64,000 nucleotides of DNA from Blastocatellia bacterium (GCA_016789725.1 JAEUQN010000008.1:9638-73637); one strand, 5' to 3'. Counted from the stretch's first letter, positions 16,555 through 29,486 are shown. Program-made: numbers and translations. Notes: a model not told the origin generated them from the letters alone.

Positions 16555-17133
16555 ATGACGAACGCGCAGCCTCAGGAAGTCACCCAACTGCTTAGGGCCT
16601 GGAACGAAGGTGACCATGTTGCTTTTGAGCAATTAGTCCCGCTCGTGCAGGTCGAATTGCATCGCCTTGCCCAAAATTACATCCACCACGAACGTCCCGG
16701 ACATATTCTGCAAACGACAGCTCTGGTCAACGAAGCGTGGGTCCGCCTGATTGATTGGCAAAGCGTCAGTTGGCAAAATCGCGCCCATTTTTACGGGGCT
16801 GCTGCTTCAATCATGCGGCGCATCTTGGTGGACGAAGCGCGGCATCGCCACCGACAAAAACACGGAGGTGGTGTCTTACAGGTTTCCCTGACGAATGCAG
16901 AAAACATCAGTCAGGAGAAAACGACGGACCTTATTGCGCTGGATGATGCGCTCAACAGTTTGGCGGAGTTGGACCCCCGCAAAAGCCGGATTGTCGAATT
17001 ACGTTTTTTTGGCGGCTTGAGCGTTGAAGAAACCGCCGAAGTGTTGAAGCTGTCGGTGCGCACGGTGGCGAGAGAATGGAGCGTTGCACAGGCTTGGCTC
17101 TTTCGTGCGTTGAATGGAGGCGACCGTGCCTAA
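16555..17133 (+). CDS. ECF-type RNA polymerase sigma factor (TIGR02999 / kinase-associated ECF group)
   Basis: The N-terminus VTQLLRAWNEGDHVAFEQLVPLV... is characteristic of this ECF subgroup. Region 2 (HILQTTALVNEAWVRL) and region 4 (IVELRFFGGLSVEETAEVLKLSVRTVAREW) are recognisable. The 3' end overlaps the kinase gene. Confidence 0.85.
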   Translation: MTNAQPQEVTQLLRAWNEGDHVAFEQLVPLVQVELHRLAQNYIHHERPGHILQTTALVNEAWVRLIDWQSVSWQNRAHFYGAAASIMRRILVDEARHRHRQKHGGGVLQVSLTNAENISQEKTTDLIALDDALNSLAELDPRKSRIVELRFFGGLSVEETAEVLKLSVRTVAREWSVAQAWLFRALNGGDRA

Positions 17134-20100
17134 TCGTTGGCAACAAATTCAAGGCATCTATTTGGACGCGTTGGAGGTTGATTCGCAGGCGCGTGCGGCC
17201 TACCTGACTGAGGCCTGTGCGGGCGACGATGAATTGCGCCGCGAGGTGGAATCGTTGCTCAACGCGCACGAAGATGCGGGAACCTTTTTGCAATCTCCTG
17301 CCGTGATTGTTGCGGCTCAGGAAATCAAGCGAAGTGGCGAAGCCGCGCCGACCCCGACGTCCCCTTTGGGCAATCAGCTCAGTCATTACAAAATCCTCTC
17401 GGCCCTCGGCGCAGGCGGAATGGGCGAAGTCTATCTGGCCGAAGACACGCGGCTGCGGCGTAAAGTTGCGTTGAAACTCCTGCCCGAAAAATTCACGCAG
17501 GACATTGAGCGGATCGTGCGTTTTGAGCAGGAAGCGCGCGCCGTGTCGGCGCTGAATCATCCGAACATCATCACCATTTACGACATCGGTCAGCAAAACA
17601 ATCTCTGGTTTATGGCGACGGAGTTTGTGGATGGTGGCACCTTGCGACAGCGCATCGCAAACAATACCGCGCTGCCTTTGTCGGAGGTGTTGGGAATTGC
17701 TGAGCAAGCGGCCAATGCCTTAGCCGCCGCGCATTCCGCCGGCATCGTTCACCGCGACATCAAGCCGGACAATGTGATGCTGCGACGCGATGGCTATGTC
17801 AAAGTGTTGGACTTTGGTCTCGCCAAGCTGACGGAAAAGGGAGACTCTGAAAACGATGCCACGCTGCGCAAAAGCATCACGGATTCCGGCACGATTATGG
17901 GGACGGTAAGTTACATGTCGCCGGAGCAGGCGCGCGGGATACGCGTGGACGCGCGTAGCGATATTTTCAGCCTCGGCGTGGTGCTCTACGAAATGATTGC
18001 GGGCCATCTCCCCTTCGATGGAACTTCGGCGAGCGATGTGATCGCTTCGATTTTGCGCAGTGAGCCATTGCCACTGGCGCGCTTTGTGGCCGAGGTGCCA
18101 GAGGAGATCAATCGCATCGTGATGAAATCGCTCGTCAAAAACCGCGAGCAACGCTATCAAACCATCAAGGATTTGGCGCTGGATTTGAAAACACTGGCGC
18201 AGGAATTGGAATTCAAATCACGGCTCGCCCGCGCGGGACAAACGCACAGAAGCGAAGACCAAGGCACGCGCATTCTTGCCGCGCAATCGCAGGCGTCTGC
18301 GCCCACCGCTTCGCAATTGATTTGCCAACAGTGTCACGAGACGAATCCGACGACGGCAAAATTCTGTTTGAATTGTGGCTCGGCGCTGATCGCGCGTTGC
18401 ACGAATTGTCAGACGGTGTTGCCGACCGGTGCAAAGTTTTGCATGAGTTGCGGGCAACAGGTCGGCGGCGCGACGACCGCAGATCGGGAACAGTTATCCA
18501 AGCTCGCCGCTGCGACGCCATCGTCCTTAGCCAATAAAATTCGCGCCGTACAACCGACCGCGGGCGAGCGCAAAGTCGTGACAGCATTGTTCGCTGATTT
18601 CTCGGTGTTTTCCACGACGGGCAAAGAAGTTGATCCCGAAGATCTTCCCGCTATCATCAATCAGGCGTTAGATCGTCTCTCGCCGACCATCTTTCATTAC
18701 GAAGGCACGGTCGCACAGGTCTTGGGGAATTCGATGCTGGCGTTTTTCGGCGCTCCGCTCGCGCACGAAGACGACGCCGTCCGCGCGGTTCGCGCCGCGC
18801 TGGAAATGGTGGCGAATGCTCGCAAGTTGGCCGATGAAATGCGCCGCAAGCAGGGCCTTGAATTTGAATTACGCATTGGACTGAACACCGGGCAAATCGT
18901 CATCGGTAACATCACGAGCCAGCTTAAATTTGAATTCACGGTCGTCGGCGACACTGTCAATCTTGCGACGCGCGCACAGGCCGCTGCGCCCACGATGTCG
19001 GTGATGATTACTGAAGACACGCATCGTCTGGTTTCATCGGTGTTTGAGTGCTCATCTCCCATTGGTTTGGGCGTGAAAGGCCGGACGGGAGAAGTGCGCA
19101 TTGCGGAGGTGCGGGAAAGCCGGACGGAATTGGACCGTGTCCACGGTCTGGCTGGATTGCAAAGCCGGATGGTAGGGCGCGACGCAGAATTGAATTCGTT
19201 GTTGCAACTGAGCATCGCCGCGCAAGCCGGGCTAGGTCGCGTGGCGGTGATTGTCGGCGAACCGGGCTTAGGCAAAACGCGCCTGATTACAGAATGGAAA
19301 GACGCCACGACCAGTGCTTTGCGGGGCAGTGCTACCGAATTGCGCTGGGCTGAAGGGCATTGTCTGTCGTATGGGCAAGGGTTGGCGTATCACTTGTTGC
19401 AAAGCCTGTTGCGCGGCTTGATCGGTGTTCCGGCGGCGGCGGAAGAAGCGCAAACACGCGCCGCGCTTTTCAAATTGACGGTGGATTTATTGGGCGAAGC
19501 GACCATTGAAGTCTATCCGTATCTGGGGCATTTGCTCTCATTGAAGCTGGAAGGTGAGGCACTTGAACGCGTGCGCCAACTTGATCCCCAGTTGCTCCAG
19601 AATCAATACCTGATGTCGTTGCGCCGTTTGTTGACGGCCTTATCCGCGCGTCAACCGCTCGGCATCTTGCTCGAAGACATTCATTGGGCTGATCCGTCGT
19701 CTGTGGAATTGCTGAATAAGCTCTTGCCGTTGGCGAGCGAATTACCGTTGCTGTTTTGCTTTGTGACGCGACCGGAGCGCGAGGTGCCGGGCTGGAAATT
19801 AGTGAACGGGGCGCGTGATTTGATGGGAGGACGGTTGACGGAAATTACCTTACGCGAACTCACCGCATCTGACAGCCAACAACTTGTCGCCAATCTGCTG
19901 GACAATGCGACGCTGCCCAAGCAAACGCACACGCTGATTCTCAAAAAAGCAGAAGGGAATCCTTTCTTTGTCGAAGAGGTGATTCGCATGTTGATAGATC
20001 ACGGCGTGCTGGAACAACAACACGGCAAGTGGATCGCCAAAGGCGAAATCGAAGCGTCAGAGATTCCCGACAATTTGCAAAGCCTCCTGCTCGCCCGCAT

Positions 20101-20197
20101 TGATCGCTTGCCCGAAGATGCCAAACGCACCTTACGCGTGGCTTCGGTGATCGGGCGTCAGTTTGCAGTGAAGGTGCTGGAAAAGGTTTTGGAATAG
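17114..20197 (+). CDS. multidomain signalling protein ending abruptly after the NTPase helical domain: ECF-partner N-terminal helix, Ser/Thr kinase, double zinc ribbon, class III nucleotidyl cyclase-like domain, P-loop STAND (AAA_16) NTPase core
   Basis: Kinase motifs are GAGGMGEVY, VALK, HRDIKPDN, DFG and SPE (about 17384-18184). Zinc ribbons are CQQC..C.NCG / C.NC...C.SCG (18320-18451). Cyclase motifs are VTALFADFSVFS...GDTVNLATR (18566-19108). Walker A is GEPGLGKT (19256-19279) and Walker B is ILLEDIHWAD (~19664-19693). GNPFFVEEV...RVASVIGRQFAVKVLEKVLE is followed by the stop. Confidence 0.9.
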   Translation: MEATVPNRWQQIQGIYLDALEVDSQARAAYLTEACAGDDELRREVESLLNAHEDAGTFLQSPAVIVAAQEIKRSGEAAPTPTSPLGNQLSHYKILSALGAGGMGEVYLAEDTRLRRKVALKLLPEKFTQDIERIVRFEQEARAVSALNHPNIITIYDIGQQNNLWFMATEFVDGGTLRQRIANNTALPLSEVLGIAEQAANALAAAHSAGIVHRDIKPDNVMLRRDGYVKVLDFGLAKLTEKGDSENDATLRKSITDSGTIMGTVSYMSPEQARGIRVDARSDIFSLGVVLYEMIAGHLPFDGTSASDVIASILRSEPLPLARFVAEVPEEINRIVMKSLVKNREQRYQTIKDLALDLKTLAQELEFKSRLARAGQTHRSEDQGTRILAAQSQASAPTASQLICQQCHETNPTTAKFCLNCGSALIARCTNCQTVLPTGAKFCMSCGQQVGGATTADREQLSKLAAATPSSLANKIRAVQPTAGERKVVTALFADFSVFSTTGKEVDPEDLPAIINQALDRLSPTIFHYEGTVAQVLGNSMLAFFGAPLAHEDDAVRAVRAALEMVANARKLADEMRRKQGLEFELRIGLNTGQIVIGNITSQLKFEFTVVGDTVNLATRAQAAAPTMSVMITEDTHRLVSSVFECSSPIGLGVKGRTGEVRIAEVRESRTELDRVHGLAGLQSRMVGRDAELNSLLQLSIAAQAGLGRVAVIVGEPGLGKTRLITEWKDATTSALRGSATELRWAEGHCLSYGQGLAYHLLQSLLRGLIGVPAAAEEAQTRAALFKLTVDLLGEATIEVYPYLGHLLSLKLEGEALERVRQLDPQLLQNQYLMSLRRLLTALSARQPLGILLEDIHWADPSSVELLNKLLPLASELPLLFCFVTRPEREVPGWKLVNGARDLMGGRLTEITLRELTASDSQQLVANLLDNATLPKQTHTLILKKAEGNPFFVEEVIRMLIDHGVLEQQHGKWIAKGEIEASEIPDNLQSLLLARIDRLPEDAKRTLRVASVIGRQFAVKVLEKVLE

Positions 20198-20199
20198 AT

Positions 20200-20303
20200 C
20201 ATTTTCCATTTTCCAATTGTCATTTGAGATTTGTCATTGGTTTGGCGCACGCGACTGCCGCCGCAATGAAAAATGACAACTGCCAATTGGGAAATGGAAA
20301 ATG
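20200..20303. repeat. long-range inverted repeat IR2 immediately after the kinase-NTPase stop
   Basis: Arms are CATTTTCCATTTTCCAATTG (20200-20219) and CAATTGGGAAATGGAAAATG (20284-20303), matching at 19 of 20 positions. An additional TTGTCATTT/AAATGACAA pairing lies inside. The right arm ends 16 nt before the nmrA-like ATG. Confidence 0.75.
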
Positions 20304-20319
20304 AAAGAAAGGTTGATTT

Positions 20320-21189
20320 ATGAACTTAGTCGTCGGTGCGACCGGATTTCTAGGCAGTGACATTTGTCGCCGCTTCTTGCAGCAAAATCAGTCTGTTCGC
20401 GCGCTGGTGCGTTCCACGTCCGATCCTGCCAAAGTTGCGGCGTTGCAAAGCCTAGGTGCGGAAATCGTCACAGGTGATTTGAAAGACCCGGCATCTGTGG
20501 CGGCTGCCTGCCAGGGCGTCAGGGCCGTGATTTCGACGGCTTCGGTGACGATTTCCCGACAAGCCGGAGATTCGATTCAGGCGGTGGATTTGGAAGGACA
20601 ACTCAATCTTCTCAACGCTGCCAAAGCGGCGGGCGTTTCTCACTTCGTCTATGTTTCATATTCTGGCAATATTGACATTGCCTGCCCTCTGAGCACGGCC
20701 AAGCGCACTGTCGAACAACGTGTGCAGGAAAGCGGTTTGACCTACACAATTTTGCGTCCGACAAATTTTATGGAAGTCTGGCTCAGTCCTGTCGTGGGCT
20801 TTGATGCGGCCAATGCCAATGTGGTCGTGTATGGTTCGGGGCAGAACAAAGTCAGTTGGATTTCGCTTGGCGATGTCGCGCAATTCGCCGTCGAGTCATT
20901 AACGAATCCGGCGGCGCGCAACGCGGTGCTGGAACTCGGTGGCCCGGAAGCCATCAGCCCGTTGGAGGTCGTCAAAATGTTGGAATCCGCTACGAGGCGC
21001 ACTTTCACCGTGCAGCACGTTCCTGAAGAAGCATTGCAGGCCCAGCTTGTTGCCGCGACCGACCCTATTCAGCAATCGTTTGCGGCCCTGATGCTGGCAA
21101 CGGCGCAAGGCGATGCGATTGATATGACGGCAACATTACAGACCTTCCCACTGCGGCTGACCTCAGTGGAAGACTTTGTCCGTCGTTAG
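20320..21189 (+). CDS. NmrA-like / atypical SDR NAD(P)-binding protein
   Basis: The N-terminal Rossmann motif is MNLVVGATGFLGSDICRRFL. Length (289 aa) and overall pattern fit the NmrA/PCBER-like family. Confidence 0.75.
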   Translation: MNLVVGATGFLGSDICRRFLQQNQSVRALVRSTSDPAKVAALQSLGAEIVTGDLKDPASVAAACQGVRAVISTASVTISRQAGDSIQAVDLEGQLNLLNAAKAAGVSHFVYVSYSGNIDIACPLSTAKRTVEQRVQESGLTYTILRPTNFMEVWLSPVVGFDAANANVVVYGSGQNKVSWISLGDVAQFAVESLTNPAARNAVLELGGPEAISPLEVVKMLESATRRTFTVQHVPEEALQAQLVAATDPIQQSFAALMLATAQGDAIDMTATLQTFPLRLTSVEDFVRR

Positions 21190-21195
21190 GCGGTT

Positions 21196-22683
21196 ATGTC
21201 CCTCCTGCGACAACTCAATACTCTCGAATCAGCGGGTCTGATCCACTTAGCGGCCCTTCAACCAGAATTGGAATACCTGTTTCGCCACGCCCTGGTGCAG
21301 GATGCTGCCTACAGTTCATTACTCAAAAATGATCGCAAACAACTACACCTCACCACCTGTCAGGCGCTTGAGAAACTTTACCCTGAACAAACGGATGATC
21401 TGGCCGCGACGCTGGCTTATCACTATGAAAAGGCCGAAGACCGCGAACGCGCGGCGCATTACTTCCGACGGGCGGGCGATCTAGCCCGGAATCGGTACGC
21501 GAATGTGGAGGCGCTGGCTTTTTATCAGGCAGCAACCAGATTGATGGCACAATCTGGCGAACTTTCAGCATCGCAGCGAGTCGCGTTAGCTCAACTTTAT
21601 GAAGACACGGGTGATCTGTTGGAAATTCTCGGCCAGCACAATGCAGCCAAAGAGCAGTATGCCGCTGCGCTCGGTTTAGTTGCGTCATCCGAAAAAATTT
21701 GGAGTGCTCGTCTTCTTCGTAAAACCGCAAATGCCAGTACCGCTCAAGATGAACGTGGAGAAGCGTTCCAAAACTATGCTGAGGCTGAAGAGGTATTAGG
21801 AATAGCGCCCGGTGAGAATGCAGATGACTGGTATCGGGAATGGCTCCAAATTCAGCTTGAGCGCAACTGGGCGTTCTATGCGTGGAGCAAGGTGGAAGAG
21901 CTGAGCGCCTCGATAGAGCGAACTCGTCCTGTGTTGGAGAGGTACGGATCGCCAGCACAGCGAGCCGCTTTTTTTCATAGCCGGGTGTATTTATCGCAGC
22001 GTCTTCACCGCTACCTGATCCCCCCTGAAGACACGGCTCACACCGAGACAGCATTGTTTGCGGCGCAACAGTCTGGCGATTTGCGTAGTATCGCGCACGC
22101 CAATTGGATTCGTGGCGTCGCTTTGTTATTGGGCAGCGATCTGGCAGCAGCGGAAGTCCATTTGCAAACCAGCTTGCGCATCGTGGAGCAAGTTGGTGAT
22201 CTGACCACCGAGATTAAATGTCTGACTTATGCCGTCGTTCTTTACCGAAGGAAAGGCAACGTCGCTGTCACACGCCAGCTTCTTCCGCGCCTCTTCCAGA
22301 TTGCGACAGACGGGAAAATGGACGGATATGTTGCTGCGGCAAAGGCCACCGAAGCGTGGCTGGCTTGGCGCGAGGGGCAAATCGCAAAGGCGTTGGAAGA
22401 AGGGAAAGCGGCACTTGAAATCTGGGAGCGAATTCCCTGGGTCTATCCCTTTCGCTGGCAAGCTCTCTGGATATTGATTGCGGGTACGCTTCGACAGGGG
22501 CAGATGGCCGAAACTGTCAACTATGCGCAGAAGCTCATGTCTCCCGAACAGATGGCTTTGCCGGATACTCTGAACGCAAATTTGGAAGCAGGCATTCGTG
22601 CCTGGGAAGCGGACCGAACAGCGGCATCGCGGCAGTATTTTGAAGTGGCTGTGAGTGATGCCACATCACAGGGGTATCTTTAA
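21196..22683 (+). CDS. orphan STAND winged-helix + TPR sensor module, paralog 1
   Basis: 495 aa. The N-terminus LLRQLNTLESAGLIHLAALQPELEYLFRHALVQDAAYSSLLKNDRKQLH...LAYHYEKAEDRERAAHYFRRAGD is the segment that follows the AAA_16 core in cyclase/kinase-STAND-TPR proteins. The rest is helical-repeat. It ends SQGYL and starts 6 nt after the previous stop. Confidence 0.8.
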   Translation: MSLLRQLNTLESAGLIHLAALQPELEYLFRHALVQDAAYSSLLKNDRKQLHLTTCQALEKLYPEQTDDLAATLAYHYEKAEDRERAAHYFRRAGDLARNRYANVEALAFYQAATRLMAQSGELSASQRVALAQLYEDTGDLLEILGQHNAAKEQYAAALGLVASSEKIWSARLLRKTANASTAQDERGEAFQNYAEAEEVLGIAPGENADDWYREWLQIQLERNWAFYAWSKVEELSASIERTRPVLERYGSPAQRAAFFHSRVYLSQRLHRYLIPPEDTAHTETALFAAQQSGDLRSIAHANWIRGVALLLGSDLAAAEVHLQTSLRIVEQVGDLTTEIKCLTYAVVLYRRKGNVAVTRQLLPRLFQIATDGKMDGYVAAAKATEAWLAWREGQIAKALEEGKAALEIWERIPWVYPFRWQALWILIAGTLRQGQMAETVNYAQKLMSPEQMALPDTLNANLEAGIRAWEADRTAASRQYFEVAVSDATSQGYL

Positions 22684-22689
22684 ATCACT

Positions 22690-24156
22690 ATGACATTACT
22701 TGTCCAACTGAACTCGCTCGAAGCAACAGGCCTGATACGGCTCTCTGCAGTGCTGCCGGAATTAGAATACTTATTTCGCCATGCGCTGGTGCAGGATGCG
22801 GCGTATGGTTCCTTACTCAAAACGGATCGTCGGCACTTGCATCAAAGCGTCGGCCAAGCACTCGAACAACTTTATCCTGAACGGCTGGCCGAAATCGCTT
22901 CGACGTTGGCCTTACATTTTGAAAAGGCGGATCATCACGACAAGGCGATTCTTTATTTCACGCTGGCCGGAGATCGGGCGCGGGCGAGCTATGCCAACAA
23001 TGAAGCAATCCAGTTTTATCAATCGGCGCTAACCCACATCGAAGCGGTTGGGAATCGGGATGAACAACGTTGTCAGCTTTACGAATCGTTGGGCGATCTT
23101 GTGAATTTGATTGGGCAGCGCGAAACCGCTCGGCAGTATTTTATGCAGGCGATTGCTGCTCTGGCTGTTCCGCTGGGACAAGCGCGGCTCTATCGCAAAA
23201 TTGCCAAGAGCCTTGTAGATGATCGCAGCTACGTTGAAGCCGAACAGAGTTTTGACAAGGGCGAAGCGATATTGCAGCGTAGTCCATCCAACGCGTCAGA
23301 GTGGCATCAGGAAAGTATCCAAAATCAGTTGGATCGTGTTTGGCTCTATTACCTTCAGGGGCAGCCCGATCAAGTCGAGAAGATTGTGCAGAAGCTGGAA
23401 CCCTGGATCGAAGCGAATGGCAGCAATCCACAAAAAGCGCAGTTTTACACCGGGCAGACGCAGGGCAGTTTGCAGCGGCGTCGGTACGAAATTACGCCTG
23501 CGCAATTGGCGCTTTCCCATAAAGGACTGGAAGCCGCCCGCGCCTCAGATGATCCAAATCTGTTGGCAGAGATGCACTTTGGCTATGGGTTTCATCTGCT
23601 TTGGTATGGTTCCTGGTCAGAAGCGGAAACAGAATTGGAGGCTGCCATGGCCTTATCCAAAAAGACGGGCAATACCGTCAATTTTGTGCGTGCCTTCACC
23701 TACCTGATTCTTCTTCATCGAGTGCGCAAAGATATTCCTAAATTGCAGGAACTCTTGCCGGAATGGCTGCGCACACTCAATGCTGCCGGGGCGAAAGAAT
23801 ACCTGCCGTATATGATTGCCATAAATGCCTGGCTTGCGTTGCAAGCTAACCGGATGGATGAGGCGGGCAAATTGGCACAGGAAGCTTTAGTCGAGTGGGA
23901 ATCCCTTCAGGGAGCCAATCCGTTTAAATGGTTAGCGCGTTGGATACTGCTCTATCTTGCCTTCCAACAAAACGATTTTTCTGCGGCGATTGAGCAGGCA
24001 AAGGCGATGCTCCTGCCCTCCCAACAAAAATTGCCGGAGGATGTGACAGCGGCACTTGAAGCTGTCGTCACAGCCGGAGAGACCGGGCAGCCTGACACCG
24101 CACAACAACCACTAGTAGAAGTGTTGAGACTCGCCACTGAAAAGAGCTATTTGTAA
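22690..24156 (+). CDS. orphan STAND winged-helix + TPR sensor module, paralog 2
   Basis: 488 aa with the same N-terminal block (LLVQLNSLEATGLIRLSAVLPELEYLFRHALVQDAAYGSLLKTDRRHLH). It ends EKSYL. The gap from paralog 1 is 6 nt. Confidence 0.8.
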   Translation: MTLLVQLNSLEATGLIRLSAVLPELEYLFRHALVQDAAYGSLLKTDRRHLHQSVGQALEQLYPERLAEIASTLALHFEKADHHDKAILYFTLAGDRARASYANNEAIQFYQSALTHIEAVGNRDEQRCQLYESLGDLVNLIGQRETARQYFMQAIAALAVPLGQARLYRKIAKSLVDDRSYVEAEQSFDKGEAILQRSPSNASEWHQESIQNQLDRVWLYYLQGQPDQVEKIVQKLEPWIEANGSNPQKAQFYTGQTQGSLQRRRYEITPAQLALSHKGLEAARASDDPNLLAEMHFGYGFHLLWYGSWSEAETELEAAMALSKKTGNTVNFVRAFTYLILLHRVRKDIPKLQELLPEWLRTLNAAGAKEYLPYMIAINAWLALQANRMDEAGKLAQEALVEWESLQGANPFKWLARWILLYLAFQQNDFSAAIEQAKAMLLPSQQKLPEDVTAALEAVVTAGETGQPDTAQQPLVEVLRLATEKSYL

Positions 24157-24184
24157 CCGGGTAACACTCGTCCGTTTTTGTTTT

Positions 24185-25687
24185 ATGCCCTTACTGAAAC
24201 AACTCAACTCGCTCGAAACCTCCGGCCTGATTCGACTCGCAGCGGTGCAGCCGGAGTTGGAATATTTGTTTCGCCACGCACTCGTGCAAGATGCGGCCTA
24301 TAGCTCCTTGCTCAAAAATGATCGCCGTCAATTGCACCAAAACGTCGGCGAAGCGTTGGAGCGGCTGTATTCGCAACAACTCAATGAAATCGCGGCGACG
24401 TTGGCGCTGCATTTTGAAAAGGCGGAGCAACGCGACAAGGCTGTGCATTATTTTCGACAGGCAGGAGATCGTGCCAGCGAAGGCTTTGCGAACACTGAGG
24501 CCCTGGCATTTTATCAATCTGCAATCGCGCAAACCGAACTCGCCTTGCAGCAAAAAAACGATGACCCGGCGCAGGCCCGGCTGGCGCAATTGCTGGAGAG
24601 CTTGGCCGATGTGCATGAGCGGATGGGGCAACACGAGGCGGCCAGAGAAGCCTATTACCGCGCGTTGGAAATACAGGCGGCGCTCTTGCTCCCGGACAAC
24701 GTGATGCAGGCGCGACTGTACCGCAAAATCGGTACGGCCCACATGATGCAACGACACTATGAAGAGGCCAGTCAGGCGTGGGCGCAGGCGGAGCAGTCTC
24801 TGGGCGATATGTCTGACCCACAACCAGATGCCGCCAGCAATGAATGGATTGATATTCAGTCGGACCGAGTGATGTATCACTACTGGAAAAACGAGCCGCT
24901 GGGGATGAAATCCATTTGTGATCGCCTCTTGCCAGTTGTTGAGCGGATAGGAACGCCGCTGCAACGAGCCAATGCATTGTACAGTTATAATCTCTATCTG
25001 TTTCGCCAGCAGCGATACGTGGTATCGGATGAGGTGATGGCGATGGTCGAAGGCAATATTCCCGTGGTGGAACAAACAGGAAAATTAACTACAATCTACG
25101 ACCATCATTTTACAGTAGGCTTTTTTCACTTCTTCCGCCGTGAAGTGGGCGAGGCGGAAAAGCATTTGTATCTGTGCCTTGAGTTGGCCGAGCGCATGGG
25201 CGATCCAGTGCGGATTTCCCGCGCGGCAAATTACCTGATGTTTGCGGCACGGGTGCGTGGGCAAATTGAGGTGACGCAGAGTTATTTTGAAACGGTGCTG
25301 AGCACAACGTGGGCTGGGCCGATGGCGGATTACACGTTTACTGTGCAATCTTGTCAGTCCTGGATCGCGTGGCGCGCCGGGAAGCTAGAAGAAGCGCGCA
25401 CGTATGGGTTGGCCGCCAGAGAAACTATCTTGGGGCCGTTTCAGCACTATCCGTTTCAGTGGGTTGTCTATTTTCCTTTGCTGGCCGTTGCGGTGACAGA
25501 AAAACAAATGACCGAAGCTTATGAATATACTCGACGCATGCTTGACCCTGAGCAAATACTTTTGCCGGACGATTTGACAGACGCGCTTGAAACGGCGGTC
25601 AAAGGGGGAGTGGCCGGAAACGATGAAGCCGCGCAACAAGCATTCGCCACCGCCCTAACATTAGCAACCACGTATGGCTACTTATAA
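24185..25687 (+). CDS. orphan STAND winged-helix + TPR sensor module, paralog 3
   Basis: 500 aa, collinear with paralog 4 and near-identical to it over about aa 66-190. It ends TTYGYL. Confidence 0.8.
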   Translation: MPLLKQLNSLETSGLIRLAAVQPELEYLFRHALVQDAAYSSLLKNDRRQLHQNVGEALERLYSQQLNEIAATLALHFEKAEQRDKAVHYFRQAGDRASEGFANTEALAFYQSAIAQTELALQQKNDDPAQARLAQLLESLADVHERMGQHEAAREAYYRALEIQAALLLPDNVMQARLYRKIGTAHMMQRHYEEASQAWAQAEQSLGDMSDPQPDAASNEWIDIQSDRVMYHYWKNEPLGMKSICDRLLPVVERIGTPLQRANALYSYNLYLFRQQRYVVSDEVMAMVEGNIPVVEQTGKLTTIYDHHFTVGFFHFFRREVGEAEKHLYLCLELAERMGDPVRISRAANYLMFAARVRGQIEVTQSYFETVLSTTWAGPMADYTFTVQSCQSWIAWRAGKLEEARTYGLAARETILGPFQHYPFQWVVYFPLLAVAVTEKQMTEAYEYTRRMLDPEQILLPDDLTDALETAVKGGVAGNDEAAQQAFATALTLATTYGYL

Positions 25688-25698
25688 GATCGCCCTTT

Positions 25699-27201
25699 AT
25701 GGCAACACTTACTCACCTCAACACGCTTGAAACCTCTGGCTTGATTCGCCTCGCCACAGTGCAACCAGAGTTGGAATACTTGTTCCGACACGCGCTGGTG
25801 CAGGATGCCGCGTATGGCTCGCTGCTGAAAAATGATCGCAAACGACTGCACCAAAGCGCGGGCGAGGCACTCGAACAACTGTATGCGGAACGGTTGGACG
25901 AAATCGCGGCGACGCTGGCGCTACATTTTGAGAAAGCCGAGCAGCACGACAAAGCAGTGCATTATTTTCGACAGGCAGGAGATCGTGCCAGCGAAGGCTT
26001 TGCGAACACTGAGGCCCTGGCATTTTATCAGTCTGCAATCGCACAAACCGAACTTACTTTGCAGCAAAAAAACGATGACTCGGCGCAGACCCGGCTGGCG
26101 CAACTGCTGGAGAGTCTGGCCGACGTGCATGAGCGGATCGGTCAACACGAAGCGGCCAGAGAAGTCTATTATCGAGCATTGGAAATACAGGCGGCGCTCC
26201 TGCTCCCGGACAACGTGATGCAGGCGCGACTGTACCGCAAGATCGGCACCGGGCACACCTTGCAGCGACAATTTGAAGAAGCCAATCGTGTGTGGGATCG
26301 TGCTGAGTTGTATCTGGGAGATATGGCACAGGCGCAGTCAAATGCCAGTGAGTCTGAATGGATAGCATTGCAAACGGAGCGGGTTCTGCATCACTACTGG
26401 ATCAATGATCCGCCAGGCATGAAAAAAATCCTAGATCGTCTGCTGCCTGTCGCGGAGCAACGAGGCACATTGCTGCAACGGGCATATGCGTTGTATGGCT
26501 ATTACCTTTACCTGTTTCGTGTGCAGCGGTATGTCGTATCAGATGAGGTGATGGCAATGGCGATGAACACGCTTCCACTTGCCGAGCAGGCAGGAAAACT
26601 AACCATCATCTTCGATCATAATTTTACGCTCGGCTTCTTTCACCTCAACCGCCGTGAATTGGGCGACGCCGAAAAGCATCTGCACACGTGCCTGACCTTA
26701 GCGGAGCGGATGGGCGATCCGATCCGCATCTCACGAGCGGCCAACTATCTGATGGTTGCGGCGCGGATGCGTGGGTTGCCAGATGTCGCGCAGAGCTATT
26801 TTGAAACTGTCCTGAGCACAACCTGGGCTGGCCCGATGGCCGATTACACCTATGTCGTGCAAGCCTGTCAGGCTTGGATTGCCTGGCGCGAAGGCCGGCT
26901 GGACGAAGCGCGAAAGCACGGCCTGGCAGCCAGAGAAGCCTTGCTGGGGCCGTTTCATCATTGGCCGTTTCAGTGGATTATTTACTTTCCCTTGCTGGCC
27001 CTTGCCACCGCAGAACAGCAAGTGATGGAAGCTATCGAATACGCCAAGCGGATGATTGATCTCAAACAGATGATTTTGCCGGAAGATTTGACGGCTGCGC
27101 TTGACAGGGCGATCCAGCTTGGAGAAGCGGAGCAATCAGACGCGGCCCTGCAAACGTTTGCCGAGGCGCTGAAGCTCGCTACTGAAATGGGCTATGTCTG
27201 A
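25699..27201 (+). CDS. orphan STAND winged-helix + TPR sensor module, paralog 4
   Basis: 500 aa. It shares a 74-nt stretch read as identical with paralog 3 (about 25947-26030 vs 24443-24516). It ends EMGYV. Confidence 0.8.
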   Translation: MATLTHLNTLETSGLIRLATVQPELEYLFRHALVQDAAYGSLLKNDRKRLHQSAGEALEQLYAERLDEIAATLALHFEKAEQHDKAVHYFRQAGDRASEGFANTEALAFYQSAIAQTELTLQQKNDDSAQTRLAQLLESLADVHERIGQHEAAREVYYRALEIQAALLLPDNVMQARLYRKIGTGHTLQRQFEEANRVWDRAELYLGDMAQAQSNASESEWIALQTERVLHHYWINDPPGMKKILDRLLPVAEQRGTLLQRAYALYGYYLYLFRVQRYVVSDEVMAMAMNTLPLAEQAGKLTIIFDHNFTLGFFHLNRRELGDAEKHLHTCLTLAERMGDPIRISRAANYLMVAARMRGLPDVAQSYFETVLSTTWAGPMADYTYVVQACQAWIAWREGRLDEARKHGLAAREALLGPFHHWPFQWIIYFPLLALATAEQQVMEAIEYAKRMIDLKQMILPEDLTAALDRAIQLGEAEQSDAALQTFAEALKLATEMGYV

Positions 27202-27206
27202 AATCT

Positions 27207-28694
27207 ATGTCATTACTGAATAATCTCAACACGCTTGAAACGTCCGGCCTGATTCGACTCGCCACAGTCCAGCCGGAGTTGGAGTATTTATTTCGGCACG
27301 CACTGGTGCAGGACGCGGCGTATGACTCACTGCTCAAAAACGACCGCAGGCACTTGCATCAAGCCGTCGGCGAGGCATTGGAATCGCTCTACCCGCAACA
27401 GTGTGATGAATTGGCTGCAACGCTGGCGCTGCATTTTGAAAAGGCGGACGCGCACGAAAAGGCATTACGTTACTTTGCGCTCGCGGCGGAGCGCGCCAGT
27501 GAAAGTTATGCGAATACGGAGGCCATCGCATTTTATGAATCCGCGATTGCGCAGGCCGCACACTTACGCAGCCCGACCAGAAATACACGCATTGCCGCGT
27601 TGCACGAAGGAATCGGCGATGTTTACAAGTGCGTCGGACAACACGAAGCGGCCCGCGCACAATATGCCCGCGCGCACGATTTGCAAGCCGCACAACCGCA
27701 ACCCGACCGGCTGTTGCAGGCGCGCATGCAGCGCAAAAGCGGCGCGACGTTGACTCCTGAGCGCCAGTTTGCCGCAGCCGATGTGATCTGGGACAACGCG
27801 GAGCAGTTGTTGGGAACGCTCTCCGATGAGAGTGACCAGGCGTTGTGGGATGAGTGGATCGAGATTCAGGTCGAGCGGACGTGGCGATATTACTGGGAAG
27901 CTTCGACAGACCAAATGGAACAGGTTTGTGATCGGGTTCTGCCTTTGGTCGAACGACGCGGCACGCCAGCGCAACGGGCGCGGGCGTTAGGGGTCTACAC
28001 CCTCTATTTTTTCCGGCGGGAACGCCTGGTTGTCTCGGATGCGACGATTGTTCTCCAGCGCAAAGTGTTGTATTACGCCCAGGAAGCCAAAAGCCCGCCA
28101 CTGGAATGCGACGCGTATTTTGGGCTGGGCTTTTATCATCTCTTCCGACGCGAATTGCCCGAAGCGGAAGAAAATTTGCGAGCTGCTTATGCGTTGGCCG
28201 AACGGATGGGATCGCCGGTTCATATTGCGCGCAGTGCGAATTACCTGATGTGCCTGGCGCGGATGCGCGGGCAAGTCGAAAAAGCAGGCACTTACTTTCC
28301 GACGATCCTCAACAACAACTGGGCTGGACCGATGGCAGATTACACCGTGCAGGTGTATGCCTGCGAAGCCTGGATGGCGTGGCGCGCTGGTGATTGGGAC
28401 ACCACGGAAGCCAAAGTGGAAGCGGCGATTGCGCGTATTGCACAAGGTTGGAAAGTCTATCCGATGAAATGGACAGCGCTCTTTCCGGCGCTTGGTGCGG
28501 CGGTCAGCAAAAAACAAGTAGAGAAAGCCGCCGAATGGGCGCAACTACTGCTCGCGCCTGACCAAATGGCACTACCTGCCGATTTGACGGCAGTTTTGGA
28601 AACGGGCATTCAACTAGCCGTGCAAGACACTGATGCCGCACTCATCGCCTTTGCTGAAGCAATTCAATTCGGGTTGGGCTATGGGTATTTGTAA
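27207..28694 (+). CDS. orphan STAND winged-helix + TPR sensor module, paralog 5
   Basis: 495 aa with the same N-terminal block. C-terminal motifs are shared with paralogs 3 and 4 (ERMG.P..I.R.ANYLM..AR.RGQ; NWAGPMADYT). It ends GYGYL. The gap from paralog 4 is 5 nt. Confidence 0.8.
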   Translation: MSLLNNLNTLETSGLIRLATVQPELEYLFRHALVQDAAYDSLLKNDRRHLHQAVGEALESLYPQQCDELAATLALHFEKADAHEKALRYFALAAERASESYANTEAIAFYESAIAQAAHLRSPTRNTRIAALHEGIGDVYKCVGQHEAARAQYARAHDLQAAQPQPDRLLQARMQRKSGATLTPERQFAAADVIWDNAEQLLGTLSDESDQALWDEWIEIQVERTWRYYWEASTDQMEQVCDRVLPLVERRGTPAQRARALGVYTLYFFRRERLVVSDATIVLQRKVLYYAQEAKSPPLECDAYFGLGFYHLFRRELPEAEENLRAAYALAERMGSPVHIARSANYLMCLARMRGQVEKAGTYFPTILNNNWAGPMADYTVQVYACEAWMAWRAGDWDTTEAKVEAAIARIAQGWKVYPMKWTALFPALGAAVSKKQVEKAAEWAQLLLAPDQMALPADLTAVLETGIQLAVQDTDAALIAFAEAIQFGLGYGYL

Positions 28695-28700
28695 CTCGCG

Positions 28701-28784
28701 GGGTCCGCACGCATCATGCATGGCAGATGGTACTGCCTCATTCATTAGGGCAACAAAACCAGTACGCAGGATGCGTGCGGACCC
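28701..28784. repeat. long-range inverted repeat IR3 after the last sensor-module gene
   Basis: Arms read as perfect 15-bp matches: GGGTCCGCACGCATC (28701-28715) and GATGCGTGCGGACCC (28770-28784). Nested GGCAG/CTGCC and GTACTG/CAGTAC pairings lie inside. An A10 run follows. Confidence 0.7.
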
Positions 28785-28940
28785 AAAAAAAAAATCGCTT
28801 CCCCATGGCAGCTTTATCTCACCAAACGCGCCTGTAGAAGTGAGACTAAAATATCCGCCAGTGGGGTAAGGCAGTTACAGTCGGGCGCTTCACTCGTCAG
28901 CAAATTGAAGCGCCCGCTGTAGCTTGAGAAAAGAGGTTCG

Positions 28941-29438
28941 ATGAGACGACTTATTACTATTTTTGCCTTATTGCTATTGGCTTCTGCCCTGTCTATGGCG
29001 CAGGACGCAAACTCCACCACCGAACAAGAAATCAAACGCCTCCTCGCCACACAGGATGAAGCAATTGTCAAAGGCGATGTGAATACACTGAAGAAACTCT
29101 CAACGGATGATTTTACGCTGGTGTCCCCCATCGGCTCCATCACAACCAAAGAGGCGTTTTTGCAATCCCTCGAAAGCCGAAGAGTCGCCTACGAAGAGCA
29201 TCACACCGAAGACCTCAAGCTGCGTATTTTTGCCGAGATGGCAGTCGCGCAAACTGTGCTGAAAATGAAGCCCGTGCTTAATGGGCAAAGTCGCGATGTG
29301 CAGATGCGCGCGACGATGGTGTTCGTCAAGGTCAAAGACCAATGGTTGCTGTATACGTTGCACTCCAGCACCATTCCGCCACCACGTCCGCCCCAACCTG
29401 TCACATCACCTGCCACACCTAAACCGCCGAGCGAATGA
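28941..29438 (+). CDS. secreted SnoaL/NTF2-like (DUF4440-type) protein with a Pro-rich tail, paralog 1
   Basis: Signal peptide MRRLITIFALLLLASALSMAQ, then ...IVKGDVNTLKKLSTDDFTLVSP.G...KEAFL.......Y.E....DLK.R....AV.......... The tail is SSTIPPPRPPQPVTSPATPKPPSE. Confidence 0.6.
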   Translation: MRRLITIFALLLLASALSMAQDANSTTEQEIKRLLATQDEAIVKGDVNTLKKLSTDDFTLVSPIGSITTKEAFLQSLESRRVAYEEHHTEDLKLRIFAEMAVAQTVLKMKPVLNGQSRDVQMRATMVFVKVKDQWLLYTLHSSTIPPPRPPQPVTSPATPKPPSE

Positions 29439-29486
29439 GGGTGGTGGCACATCGGATCGTCGCCCAATCAAAGAGGAGAGAATCGT

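What the first reader, a model, noticed from the sequence alone, without database searches (positions are those of the whole stretch)
16555..28694. Split STAND NTPase: one kinase-cyclase-NTPase chassis stops at the NOD/winged-helix boundary, and five downstream genes each encode the missing winged-helix + TPR half
Seen in the sequence: the 1027-aa protein (17114-20197) carries a kinase, a double Zn ribbon, a cyclase-like domain and a P-loop core (GEPGLGKT, LLEDIHWAD, GNPFFVEEV, RVASVIGRQF). It terminates at ...AVKVLEKVLE-stop. In single-chain cyclase/kinase-AAA_16-TPR proteins, as I recall them, ASVIG..F is followed within about 15 residues by L..L...E.I.......EY.F(K/R)H.L.Q..AY..L....R..LH, then ...HYE.A.....A..Y...A and TPR repeats. 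That continuation is absent from the chassis gene. It forms the N-terminus of each of five tandem genes (21196-28694): LL.QLN.LE..GLI.L....PELEYLFRHALVQDAAY.SLLK.DR..LH...G.ALE.LY...........LALHFEKA. These genes are packed with 5-28 nt spacers behind an NmrA-like gene. Inference: the conserved His in FRHAL would correspond to the winged-helix His that contacts bound nucleotide in STAND proteins (the MHD equivalent). The lid and sensor would then be supplied in trans by any of five alternative subunits to one effector chassis that is genetically coupled to an ECF sigma factor. I know of no described signalling or defence system with a one-chassis, multiple-detachable-sensor architecture.
Basis: partly seen in the sequence, partly recalled or inferred. 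Interest (0 to 1): 0.9.

Follow-up and report, generated by a model that had tools for sequence, protein, structure and literature searches.

The report
Split STAND receptor with interchangeable sensors
A bacterial switch protein of the same class as animal and plant immune receptors is here cut in two inside one small domain, and one signalling half is followed by five different sensor halves, an arrangement that turns out to be widespread but that I could not find described.

Summary
An ECF sigma gene (16555-17133) overlaps a 1027-aa kinase / zinc-ribbon / cyclase-like / P-loop "chassis" (17114-20197). An NmrA-like gene follows, then five co-directional 488-500-aa genes (21196-28694).

The break lies inside the winged-helix domain, not at its boundary. 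The chassis keeps three helices and strand 1. Each module supplies helix 4, the beta-hairpin wing with the FRH motif, and the TPR sensor.

The split is neither artefact nor decay. Chassis of about 1005-1045 aa persist down to 58% identity under purifying selection. Close relatives carry 1, 2, 3, 4 or 5 modules. A strain with a 99%-identical chassis has a different module set.

The same break is the norm in a large family, mostly Chloroflexota and Dormibacterota. There, 75 modules abut the chassis stop (most with an inferred 4-nt overlap), against 3 fused genes. An Anaerolineae locus also has five modules.

Module N-termini stay 63-85% identical while synonymous sites are near saturation. Sensor regions are mostly 27-31% identical.

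Best reading: a two-polypeptide STAND receptor in which alternative sensors complete one chassis, whose kinase activates the ECF sigma. Physical assembly and ligands are untested. I class it as a new variant of a known kind.

The parts
16555..17133 (+). ECF sigma factor (192 aa), overlapping the chassis start by 20 nt
   Evidence: It matches Pfam Sigma70_ECF at 1e-56. It also matches NCBIfam TIGR02999 Sig-70_X6 at 216 bits, above the 126-bit cutoff. In place of the acidic DAED motif of region 2.2 it has LQTTALVNEAW. A Thr/Ser is kept there in all seven orthologues read. Compare the EcfP STTA phospho-site described in PMC8999054.
17114..20197 (+). Chassis gene (1027 aa): N-terminal helical region, Hanks kinase, double zinc ribbon, cyclase-like domain, P-loop NBD, helical domain and the first half of a winged helix
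   Evidence: Translation is and Pfam hits. Orthologues of 1005-1045 aa run from 99% down to 58% identity, and all stop at the same point. dN/dS against orthologues is 0.04-0.12.
17387..18160 (+). Ser/Thr protein kinase domain (residues 92-349)
   Evidence: It matches Pfam Pkinase at 1.8e-49. HRDIKPDN, DFG and SPE motifs are intact in the translation.
18572..19084 (+). Class III cyclase homology domain (residues 487-657), probably catalytically degenerate
   Evidence: It matches Pfam Guanylate_cyc at 2.3e-19. Aligned to CyaB 3r5g and Cya2 2w01, the second metal Asp (GD) is Asn (GN) and the adenine Lys is Gln. The second Asp is Asn in all 9 kinase-type chassis ORFs scored. 61 of all 71 chassis keep both Asp.
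19169..20074 (+). STAND nucleotide-binding domain plus helical domain (residues about 686-987)
   Evidence: It matches AAA_16 at 5e-20. Walker A GEPGLGKT, Walker B LLEDIHWAD, TRPE and the GxP motif GNPFF are conserved. The AF2 chimera gives the best PDB fold match to 6mfv_A, a STAND with a TPR sensor, at E 3e-14, followed by Apaf-1 and CED-4.
20075..20194 (+). First half of the winged-helix domain (chassis residues about 988-1027): helix 1, helix 2, strand 1, helix 3, then stop
   Evidence: In the AF2 chimera these elements are H319-329, H332-344, E347-349 and H350-357, with the chain break after residue 358. In fused relatives the break falls in a loop of 0 to about 20 residues.
20199..20304 (+). 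106-nt imperfect inverted repeat filling the chassis-NmrA intergenic region
   Evidence: Its 41-nt arms are 85% complementary. The RNA fold energy is -47.5 kcal/mol, z = -5.2. It is nearly identical in L090, and different hairpin-forming sequence occupies the same place in L005 and L006. Its function is unknown.
20320..21189 (+). NmrA-like NAD(P)-binding protein (289 aa) between chassis and modules
   Evidence: It matches Pfam NmrA at 3e-35. It sits in the same position in L005, L006, L090 and L091, next to the module on the opposite strand in L003, and is absent from this position in L007 and L008.
21196..22683 (+). Module M1 (495 aa): second half of the winged helix (about residues 1-41, nt 21196-21318) plus TPR sensor
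   Evidence: Translation is. It maps to TIGR03903 positions 809-924. The orthologue in L005 is 91% identical with dN/dS 0.16. The M1-type lineage includes P0175, P0174 and P0171.
22690..24156 (+). Module M2 (488 aa); half winged helix at nt 22690-22812
   Evidence: Translation is. It has the most divergent sensor, 27-31% identical to the other modules. Its own orthologous lineage includes P0161 at 82% and P0163 at 64%.
24185..25687 (+). Module M3 (500 aa); half winged helix at nt 24185-24307
   Evidence: Translation is. The sensor is 70% identical to M4. It matches TPR_12 at 1.7e-11.
25699..27201 (+). Module M4 (500 aa); half winged helix at nt 25699-25821
   Evidence: Translation is. The orthologue in L090 is 93% identical, with dS 0.35 against 0.11 for the chassis.
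27207..28694 (+). Module M5 (495 aa); half winged helix at nt 27207-27329
   Evidence: Translation is. Orthologues are 94% (L005), 92% (L090) and 83% (L091) identical. Modelled alone, residues 1-40 have pLDDT 41-70 and no hairpin. Joined to the chassis, the same residues score 74-90 and form helix, hairpin, helix.
12910..16341 (-). Divergently oriented CarboxypepD_reg / OMP_b-brl_4 outer-membrane barrel (1143 aa). It is a conserved neighbour and a possible target of the sigma factor (inference only).
   Evidence: It matches Pfam OMP_b-brl_4 at 2e-169. The same type of gene lies next to the sigma-chassis pair in L003, L005, L007 and L090.

Best explanation
The locus encodes a STAND (NOD-type) signalling NTPase made of two polypeptides.

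The chassis carries the outputs, an active-looking Hanks kinase and a degenerate cyclase-like domain. It also carries the P-loop NBD, the helical domain and the first half of the winged-helix domain.

Each of the five downstream proteins begins with the second half of that winged helix: helix 4, the beta-hairpin wing and the FRH motif. Each continues into a different TPR superhelix.

Inferred steps:
1. A module completes the winged helix of a chassis molecule by fragment complementation. This gives a non-covalent NBD-HD-WHD-TPR receptor.
2. The cell therefore holds up to five receptor species that share one output.
3. Ligand binding to a TPR sensor releases autoinhibition, as in MalT and PH0952.
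4. The NOD exchanges nucleotide and oligomerises.
5. The clustered kinase domains activate and phosphorylate the co-transcribed ECF sigma factor at the Thr/Ser that replaces the acidic sigma-2.2 motif. That switches on its regulon.
6. The five modules thus act as an OR gate of different inputs onto one sigma factor.
7. The module block is exchanged and resized by recombination between strains.

Shown here: the gene and domain anatomy, the position of the split in the predicted fold, conservation and selection, variable module number, and the wide occurrence of the same split.

Inferred: assembly in trans, use of this chassis by all five modules, ligand-dependent activation, and sigma phosphorylation.
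For: The two halves are complementary.
- On the single-chain profile TIGR03903, the chassis covers positions 277-798 and the modules cover 809-924.
- Fused relatives P0015, P0022, P0024 and P0028 read through the break, with a 0 to about 20 residue variable loop there.
- An AF2 model of chassis 670-1027 joined to M5 has mean pLDDT 90.4 and pTM 0.79. It shows a winged helix whose three-stranded sheet takes strand 1 from the chassis and strands 2-3 from the module.
- The best PDB fold match is the STAND-TPR protein 6mfv_A (E 3e-14), followed by Apaf-1 and CED-4.
- In the module modelled alone, residues 1-40 have low confidence (pLDDT 41-70) and no hairpin.

The split is stable and functional.
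- Truncated chassis of about 1005-1045 aa occur from 99% down to 58% identity, all ending at the same profile position.
- dN/dS is 0.04-0.16 for the chassis and for M1 and M5 against their orthologues.

The module N-terminus is constrained.
- Over its first 110 codons, pS is 0.5-0.83 and dN/dS is about 0.1. Conservation therefore reflects selection on the protein, not gene conversion.
- Sensor regions are mostly 27-31% identical.

Module number varies behind an orthologous chassis.
- L007, L008 and L003 have one module; L005 and L006 two; L090 three; L091 four; the window five.
- L090 has a 99%-identical chassis (dS 0.11) but a different module set.
- The NmrA-plus-module block has dS 0.22-1.31, against 0.08-0.16 in the ECF, chassis, SnoaL2 and DUF3108 genes on either side.

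The split is general.
- In the 89 related loci then fetched plus the window, 75 modules abut the end of a NOD ORF. The inferred start overlaps the stop by 4 nt in most of them.
- 33 further modules lie elsewhere in arrays or are solo, and only 3 genes are fused.
- An Anaerolineae locus has one cyclase-NOD chassis and five modules.
- In an exhaustive search of 1.84 billion representative proteins, about 145 of the best 150 matches start within the first ~45 residues of the protein, most at residue 1-10.

The output is plausible.
- The kinase motifs are intact.
- The sigma has QTTA where DAED normally sits, and this is conserved. That matches the phosphorylation-activated ECF43 mechanism reviewed in PMC8999054.
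Against: - No experiment or true multimer prediction shows that the two chains bind.
- The high-confidence model was a covalent chimera, and its alignment included naturally fused homologues. It was therefore likely to fold like them.
- Only 64 kb of this genome was available, so other chassis that might use some of the five modules cannot be excluded.
- Most loci in the wider family have a single module. The split itself must therefore have a function other than sensor multiplicity.
- Nothing identifies the ligands.
- The NmrA-like gene and a stable hairpin lie between the chassis and the modules, so expression may be uncoupled.
- Sigma phosphorylation is inferred from a motif and gene adjacency alone.
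Confidence: 0.6

Rival explanations
1. The architecture is split, but pairing is not one-to-many. Only one module, for example the M5 type that is the sole module in some relatives, is the true partner of this chassis. The other modules serve chassis encoded elsewhere, or act as competitive inhibitors or buffers. They would occupy the half winged helix without transmitting a signal.
For: Most loci in the family have exactly one module per chassis: 79 of 93 locus-strands. The single module of L007 is of the M5 type. Only 64 kb of the genome could be examined. Some retrieved loci hold modules with no chassis in the stretch fetched (L010, L012, L022, L081, L087).
Against: All five N-termini are under equally strong purifying selection and are almost identical in the half winged helix. 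Each module type has its own conserved orthologous lineage, and L091 keeps the window's M1, M2, M3/4, M5 order. The modules sit in one tightly spaced co-directional block behind a single chassis, both here and in the independent Anaerolineae array.
Confidence: 0.22
2. The system is an anti-phage or conflict receptor, like Avs and bacterial NLR-related proteins, rather than a metabolic or environmental signalling pathway. The module array would be a repertoire of pattern-recognition sensors diversifying in an arms race.
For: STAND-TPR proteins include the antiviral Avs families (PMC13581612). The module block turns over much faster than its flanks, and module content differs between strains with a 99%-identical chassis. 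The sensor regions are highly divergent. The kinase domain matches PADLOC kinase models such as PD-T4-6 and mad6.
Against: No Avs or other STAND defence model in PADLOC matches the NOD or the modules. The PADLOC kinase matches cover only the kinase domain (chassis residues about 74-412), and I read them as generic for Hanks kinases. The output is a kinase coupled to an ECF sigma, not a nuclease or another toxic effector. The neighbours are housekeeping and envelope genes, namely an outer-membrane barrel, LeuRS and DUF3108, not a defence island. dN/dS in sensors between orthologues is 0.10-0.24, which indicates purifying rather than positive selection.
Confidence: 0.12
3. The split is an artefact or gene decay. 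It would be a frameshift or assembly error at about 20.2 kb, or a dying gene whose C-terminal fragments were duplicated. The TPR proteins would then be independent of the chassis.
For: One related locus has its chassis broken into two frames and also carries module fragments (L011). That record is titled as an uncultured Acidobacteriota MAG. Whether it shows real decay or sequencing indels was not determined.
Against: The same stop position and an ATG-initiated module recur in dozens of independent assemblies from several phyla. In this window a complete 289-aa gene lies between the chassis and the modules, so no frameshift could rejoin them. The chassis and modules are under purifying selection. 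The chassis of the independently assembled L090 contig is 99% identical at the protein level and has the same length and intergenic hairpin. M1, M2 and M3 are 100% identical to NCBI proteins (P0172, P0168, P0131) that all lie on one 75,454-bp Blastocatellia contig.
Confidence: 0.02

Closest known systems
STAND NTPases with TPR sensors of the MalT / PH0952 type (PDB 6mfv)
   Same: The model has the NBD, helical domain, winged helix and TPR superhelix order. 6mfv_A is its best structural match (E 3e-14). Walker A, Walker B and the GxP motif are intact.
   Different: Every member I am aware of (from my own knowledge) is a single polypeptide. Here the chain is cut inside the winged helix and the sensor half is a separate gene, present in five versions. 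The output is a kinase with an ECF sigma, not a DNA-binding domain.
Fused kinase / cyclase / AAA_16 / TPR proteins (NCBIfam TIGR03903, 'TOMM system kinase/cyclase fusion protein') and the fused relatives P0015, P0022, P0024 and P0028
   Same: The domain order is the same. The chassis and modules map to consecutive parts of the TIGR03903 profile. The fused relatives are 56-80% identical to the chassis over the aligned region and are also preceded by an ECF sigma.
   Different: Those proteins are single chains with one sensor. The chassis score of 370 bits is below the curated cutoff of 705.75, so it is not a member of that equivalog. No RiPP-type domain turned up among the flanking ORFs I scanned with Pfam, although that was not a systematic search of the window.
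ECF43-type sigma factors activated by a Ser/Thr kinase (EcfP-PknT, EcfK-PknS; PMC8999054, PMC13147305)
   Same: The sigma gene is adjacent to a Hanks kinase, with no anti-sigma gene between them. The acidic DAED motif is replaced by a Thr-containing motif, QTTA here and STTA in EcfP.
   Different: The characterised kinase PknS is described as a transmembrane protein (abstract of PMC13147305). Here the kinase is the N-terminal output of a cytoplasmic STAND NTPase with detachable sensors. The formal ECF group was not assigned.
NAIP paralogues with NLRC4, and plant sensor / helper NLR networks
   Same: Several paralogous sensors, often in tandem arrays, feed one common executor. The sensor repertoire varies between strains. 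This comparison rests on my own knowledge of these systems.
   Different: In those systems each sensor is itself a complete STAND protein that co-oligomerises with the executor. Here the sensors lack any NTPase and would complete a domain of the executor.
Type I restriction-modification systems with several alternative HsdS specificity subunits
   Same: One enzymatic core is combined with interchangeable specificity subunits that are encoded in arrays and reshuffled by recombination. This comparison rests on my own knowledge.
   Different: The protein families and mechanism are unrelated. No invertase or inverted module copies are present here, since all five modules are co-directional.

Membership tests
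STAND NTPase (AAA_16 / MalT-like clade) | P-loop NBD with Walker A and Walker B | tested here: met
   GEPGLGKT and LLEDIHWAD are present and conserved across orthologues. AAA_16 matches at 5e-20.
STAND NTPase (AAA_16 / MalT-like clade) | Helical domain with a GxP motif, followed by a winged-helix domain, forming the NOD | tested here: met
   GNPFF is conserved. The AF2 chimera shows NBD, HD and WHD, and its best PDB matches are 6mfv_A, Apaf-1 and CED-4. The winged helix exists only as a composite of the two gene products.
STAND NTPase (AAA_16 / MalT-like clade) | NOD and repeat sensor on one polypeptide, as in every member I know of | tested here: not met
   A stop codon follows helix 3 of the winged helix, and the sensor lies in separate genes.
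STAND NTPase (AAA_16 / MalT-like clade) | Nucleotide-dependent, ligand-triggered oligomerisation | not testable with these tools
   This needs biochemistry.
STAND NTPase (AAA_16 / MalT-like clade) | Conserved winged-helix histidine contacting the bound nucleotide (MHD-like) | tested here: inconclusive
   FRH is invariant in all the Blastocatellia-family modules and fused relatives aligned, with H also kept in the more distant fused proteins. In the model it sits at the end of wing strand 3 (chimera residue 389). No coordinates or ligand were available to measure a contact.
NCBIfam TIGR03903 TOMM system kinase/cyclase fusion protein | Whole-protein score above the curated cutoff of 705.75 bits | tested here: not met
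   The chassis scores 369.9 bits and the modules score 52-66 bits.
Phosphorylation-activated ECF sigma (ECF43-like) with its cognate Ser/Thr kinase | The sigma lacks the acidic DAED motif of region 2.2 and carries a Thr/Ser there | tested here: met
   LQTTALVNEAW in the window. The seven orthologues read have QTTA in five, QTSA in one and QATA in one. The criterion is taken from PMC8999054.
Phosphorylation-activated ECF sigma (ECF43-like) with its cognate Ser/Thr kinase | An adjacent Hanks-type kinase gene and no anti-sigma gene | tested here: met
   The sigma stop overlaps the chassis start. The same pairing occurs in L001, L003, L005, L007, L008, L090 and the P0015 locus.
Phosphorylation-activated ECF sigma (ECF43-like) with its cognate Ser/Thr kinase | Phosphorylation of the sigma factor by the kinase | not testable with these tools
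   This needs an in vitro kinase assay or phosphoproteomics.
Antiviral STAND (Avs) and other catalogued defence systems | A match of the NOD or sensor to a defence-system model | tested here: not met
   In PADLOC only the kinase domain matches (PD-T4-6, mad6). The modules and NmrA have no hit.
Class III adenylate/guanylate cyclase (catalytically active) | Two metal-binding Asp residues plus the Asn and Arg of the transition-state motif | tested here: not met
   The first Asp, the Asn and the Arg are present. The second Asp is Asn and the adenine Lys is Gln. The same Asp-to-Asn change is found in all 9 kinase-type chassis ORFs scored.

The most novel reading that the evidence does not exclude
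A large, undescribed class of bacterial STAND receptors is naturally split inside the winged-helix domain. A constant NTPase-effector chassis is completed in trans by exchangeable sensor cassettes. In some lineages, including this Blastocatellia genome and an Anaerolineae genome, the cassettes have expanded into strain-variable arrays of up to five sensors, reshuffled by recombination. That would give one output pathway a modular, evolvable input repertoire.
Probability: 0.4. Interest if true: 0.85.

Novelty: new variant of a known kind. Interest (0 to 1): 0.78.

Why it matters
STAND/NLR proteins are the central switches of innate immunity and of many bacterial regulatory circuits. To my knowledge they are described and studied as single chains, in which sensor, lid and NTPase communicate within one molecule.

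A natural version cut inside the winged helix would be a ready-made system for testing how the sensor and the winged helix control nucleotide exchange. It represents hundreds of sequence clusters, and a sister lineage apparently re-fused with the module's start Met retained (P0015).

It would also show that receptor specificity can be diversified cheaply, by duplicating and swapping about 500-aa sensor cassettes against one constant chassis. That suggests a design for engineering modular biosensors.

For Acidobacteriota it links a poorly understood class of kinase-coupled ECF sigma factors to a defined cytoplasmic sensing device.

Tried and rejected
**Look-ups that found nothing**
- Exact look-ups of the window chassis and of P0131 found no record. 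The source was instead inferred from proteins P0172, P0168 and P0131. They are 100% identical to M1, M2 and M3, all lie on one 75,454-bp contig, and P0168 and P0172 carry the NCBI tags JNM09_03560 and JNM09_03555 of a Blastocatellia MAG.
- A sequence search of the PDB with the NOD-TPR part of P0015 found only designed TPR proteins. Fold search was needed.

- The word-indexed homologue search with M5 did not return the fused relatives already known. It could not be used for a fused-to-split ratio. The genome scan plus HMM classification and the exhaustive representative search replaced it.

**Failed modelling attempt**
- I tried to mimic a trans complex with a 50-residue Gly-Ser linker and an unpaired alignment.
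- MAFFT misaligned the non-overlapping chassis and module rows.
- As a control I modelled the module alone instead.

**Scans at chance level**
- The promoter and terminator consensus scan of 16.2-29 kb was at chance level.
- The hairpin motif at 20.2 kb occurs nowhere else in the window, so it is not a repeated mobile element here.

**Ideas rejected**
- Gene conversion as the cause of N-terminal similarity is rejected, because synonymous sites are near saturation.
- A programmed frameshift that rejoins the halves is rejected for this locus, because a complete NmrA gene lies between them.

**Literature**
- Six full-text searches found no description of a split STAND or of sensor arrays.
- The 2026 STAND census mentions "split proteins" only once, in its methods.

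Full report
**1. What is in the window**

- A 192-aa ECF sigma gene lies at 16555-17133. It overlaps by 20 nt a 1027-aa gene at 17114-20197.
- That gene encodes Pkinase (92-349), a double zinc ribbon (404-447), a class III cyclase homology domain (487-657) and AAA_16 (686-881).
- All quoted motifs are present, and the protein ends ...RVASVIGRQFAVKVLEKVLE-stop.
- A 106-nt inverted repeat fills the next intergenic region. Its RNA fold energy is -47.5 kcal/mol, z = -5.2.
- A 289-aa NmrA-like gene follows at 20320-21189. Five co-directional genes of 488-500 aa then span 21196-28694, separated by 5-28 nt.
- The first 110 or so residues of the five modules are almost identical. The rest is mostly 27-31% identical; M3/M4 are 70% and M5 versus M3/M4 about 45%.
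- At DNA level the 5' ends form a five-copy 300-nt direct repeat with a 1.5-kb period.
- The surroundings are ordinary chromosomal genes: an outer-membrane barrel, LeuRS, an M61 peptidase and DUF3108.
- M1, M2 and M3 are 100% identical to NCBI proteins P0172, P0168 and P0131, which all lie on one 75,454-bp contig. P0168 and P0172 carry tags JNM09_03560 and JNM09_03555 of a Blastocatellia MAG, which identifies the source lineage.

**2. The modules are the missing continuation of the chassis**

Three independent results show this.
- On the single-chain profile NCBIfam TIGR03903 (1267 positions), the chassis matches positions 277-798. Residues 5-120 of each module match positions 809-924.
- Fused relatives of 1461-1550 aa exist at 56-80% identity and read straight through the break. 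P0015 has ...VKVLEQV-MTLLDQLNTLE..., even keeping the module's Met. P0022, P0024 and P0028 have a 5-25 residue variable linker there.
- An AlphaFold2 model of chassis 670-1027 joined to M5 is confident (mean pLDDT 90.4, pTM 0.79). Its best PDB match is the STAND-TPR protein 6mfv_A (E 3e-14), followed by Apaf-1, CED-4 and further down ZAR1.

**3. Where the cut falls**

In that model the winged helix consists of helix 319-329, helix 332-344, strand 347-349 and helix 350-357. The chain break comes next. Then follow helix 362-370, hairpin strands 374-379 and 382-387, and helix 390-399.

The chassis therefore holds the first half of the winged helix. The module holds helix 4, the wing and the invariant FRH.

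The domain would have to be rebuilt from two chains, with an intermolecular three-stranded sheet.

When M5 is modelled alone, residues 1-40 drop to pLDDT 41-70 and are drawn as helices with no hairpin. The TPR body stays above 87. That fits a segment that folds only with its partner.

Caveat: the chimera was covalent, and its alignment contained fused homologues. It shows compatibility, not binding. A linker-plus-unpaired-alignment test could not be run.

**4. Not an artefact, not decay**

- Chassis orthologues of about 1005-1045 aa run from 99% to 58% identity, and all stop at the same place.
- I read the flanks of ten of these loci. Each has ECF sigma, chassis, then one or more modules starting M-x-L-[LI]-x-x-L-N-x-L-E.
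- Spacers vary among them: 2 nt in L003 and 26 nt in L001.
- dN/dS against orthologues is 0.04-0.12 for the chassis and 0.10-0.16 for M1 and M5.
- Among the five paralogues, the N-terminal 110 codons have nearly saturated synonymous sites (pS 0.5-0.83) but dN/dS of about 0.1. Their similarity is therefore maintained by selection on the protein, not by gene conversion.

**5. A variable array behind a constant chassis**

Module number behind orthologous chassis:

| Locus | Modules |
|---|---|
| L007, L008, L003 | 1 |
| L005, L006 | 2 (orthologues of M1 and M5) |
| L090 | 3 |
| L091 | 4 (order M1, M2, M3/4, M5) |
| Window | 5 |

Each module type has its own orthologous lineage in other metagenomes.

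L090 is the most telling case.
- Its sigma and chassis are 99% identical to the window's (dS about 0.10-0.11).
- Its array is a novel module plus M4 (93%) and M5 (92%).
- Between the two strains, the ECF, chassis, SnoaL2 and DUF3108 genes on either side have dS 0.08-0.16.
- NmrA has dS 1.31, the modules 0.22-0.35, the first 110 codons of M4 0.87, and the first SnoaL gene 0.41.

The NmrA-plus-module block thus has a separate history, which I read as recombinational exchange.

**6. The split is widespread**

- A scan of 185,579 species genomes with the module motifs gave at least 586 relatives.
- I classified the best 80 of those loci, the nine loci fetched earlier and the window with HMMs of the NOD and of the module N-terminus. 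75 modules start exactly where a NOD ORF ends. The inferred start overlaps the stop by 4 nt in most of them, consistent with an ATGA stop/start overlap.
- 33 more are further array members or solo, and 3 genes are fused.
- These loci are mostly Chloroflexota (Anaerolineae, Limnocylindria) and Dormibacterota, with a few Actinomycetota, Verrucomicrobiota and Acidobacteriota.
- Their chassis are mostly cyclase-NOD, or zinc-ribbon-cyclase-NOD, without a kinase.
- One Anaerolineae contig has a chassis ending ...RVASVIGRQFSVRVLEEVLGKS-stop, followed by five modules of 481-594 aa.
- An exhaustive profile search of 1.84 billion representative proteins found 45,965 hits at E <= 1e-3, 14,478 at E <= 1e-10 and 357 at E <= 1e-30.
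- In about 145 of the best 150, the match starts within the first ~45 residues of the protein, most at residue 1-10.

So the window is a kinase-bearing, five-module member of a large split family. Multi-module arrays are a recurrent minority: 12 of 93 locus-strands had two or more modules.

**7. Output**

The cyclase domain.
- Aligned to CyaB and Cya2, the second metal-binding Asp is Asn and the adenine-binding Lys is Gln.
- All 9 kinase-type chassis ORFs scored share the Asp-to-Asn change. 61 of all 71 chassis keep both Asp.
- I infer that in Blastocatellia the kinase took over as output and the cyclase became a structural or dimerising domain.

The kinase and sigma.
- The kinase has intact HRD, DFG and SPE motifs.
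- The sigma matches TIGR02999.
- It carries LQTTALVNEAW where canonical ECFs have the acidic DAED motif. A Thr/Ser is conserved there in all seven orthologues read.
- This matches the ECF43 mechanism, in which EcfP is inactive until PknT phosphorylates the second Thr of STTA (PMC8999054).

**8. Mechanism proposed**

A module completes the winged helix of the chassis to give a non-covalent STAND receptor. Ligand binding to the TPR releases autoinhibition. The NOD exchanges nucleotide and oligomerises, the kinases activate, and the sigma factor is phosphorylated and recruits RNA polymerase. Five modules give five inputs to one output.

All steps after the anatomy are inference. The main rival is that only one module pairs with this chassis (section 9).

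**9. Rivals**

- Only one module pairs with this chassis, and the rest pair elsewhere or act as decoys. This cannot be excluded with 64 kb.
- The system is a defence receptor. Fast turnover of the module block supports this. The absence of defence-model hits for the NOD and modules, the sigma output, the housekeeping neighbourhood and purifying selection in the sensors argue against it.
- Artefact or decay. This is contradicted, as shown in section 4.

**10. Comparison with what is known, and novelty**

The fold and logic are those of MalT/PH0952-type STAND proteins, and the sigma-kinase pair resembles ECF43 systems.

The new elements are:
- the break inside the winged helix;
- its conservation as the dominant state of a large family;
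- arrays of alternative sensor cassettes behind one chassis.

Six literature searches found no description. The 2026 census of bacterial STAND receptors mentions "split proteins" only in its methods.

Functionally similar designs exist in unrelated systems, namely NAIPs with NLRC4, plant sensor/helper NLRs and multiple HsdS subunits. The principle of one executor with many sensors is therefore not new. I classify the finding as a new variant of a known kind, with high interest.

Noticed in passing
window 20199-20304: A 106-nt imperfect inverted repeat starts two bases after the chassis stop and ends 15 nt before the NmrA start. Its arms are 41 nt, its RNA fold energy is -47.5 kcal/mol and z is -5.2. 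It is nearly identical in L090. In L005 and L006 the same gap holds different sequence that also forms hairpins. It could be an attenuator, a terminator or an RNA stability element that uncouples chassis and module expression.
   Followed up: partly
window 18572-19084; chassis ORFs of L001, L003, L005, L007, L008: The cyclase homology domain has Asn in place of the second metal-binding Asp in all 9 kinase-type chassis ORFs scored. 61 of all 71 chassis keep both Asp. This suggests the enzyme became a pseudo-enzyme once a kinase was added.
   Followed up: yes
window 20320-29435 compared with L090 7536-13642: Between two strains with 99%-identical sigma and chassis, the NmrA gene is only 78% identical (dS 1.31). 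The modules and the first SnoaL-like gene have dS two to four times that of the flanking genes. The first 110 codons of M4 (dS 0.87) differ more than the rest of M4 (0.25), which points to a mosaic origin through recombination.
   Followed up: partly
L019 1387-6200 and L025 8096-13200; proteins P0186, P0191, P0208, P0227: Some Chloroflexota modules are about 835-850 aa. In the database proteins of that size (P0186, P0191, P0208, P0227) a SpoIIE/PP2C phosphatase domain is recorded. L019 and L025 each carry two modules of that length behind one cyclase-NOD chassis. A module can therefore bring an output domain as well as a sensor.
   Followed up: no
protein P0015 (locus without DNA): The fused relative P0015 keeps a Met exactly at the junction (...VKVLEQV-M-TLLDQLN...) and has no extra modules downstream. 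This looks like a secondary re-fusion of a split pair rather than the ancestral state.
   Followed up: partly
L011 (uncultured Acidobacteriota MAG, contig of 558 kb), about 3900-13000: The chassis NOD is broken into two overlapping frames, and two module fragments precede two intact modules. This is either real decay of one such locus or indel errors in the assembly.
   Followed up: no
window 28941-30610: Two SnoaL-like/DUF4440 genes and a second, shorter NmrA-like NAD(P)-binding gene follow the module array. The same trio follows the modules in L090 and L091, and one SnoaL-like gene plus the short NmrA-like gene follows them in L005-L007. They may be part of the same operon or regulon.
   Followed up: partly
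window 9696-11165: A 489-aa protein combines an OmpR-type DNA-binding domain (Trans_reg_C) with TPR repeats. Trans_reg_C proteins also lie near the sigma-chassis pair in L001 and L007.
   Followed up: no
window 37990-41235 (- strand) and 11349-12977 (- strand): Two long ORFs of 1081 aa and 542 aa have no Pfam match at E <= 1e-4.
   Followed up: no
chassis residues 1-90 (window 17114-17383): A conserved helical region precedes the kinase (W..I..+Y..AL......R..+L...C..D..LR.EVESLL) and is shared by all orthologues. It is a candidate docking site for the sigma factor, but this was not tested.
   Followed up: no
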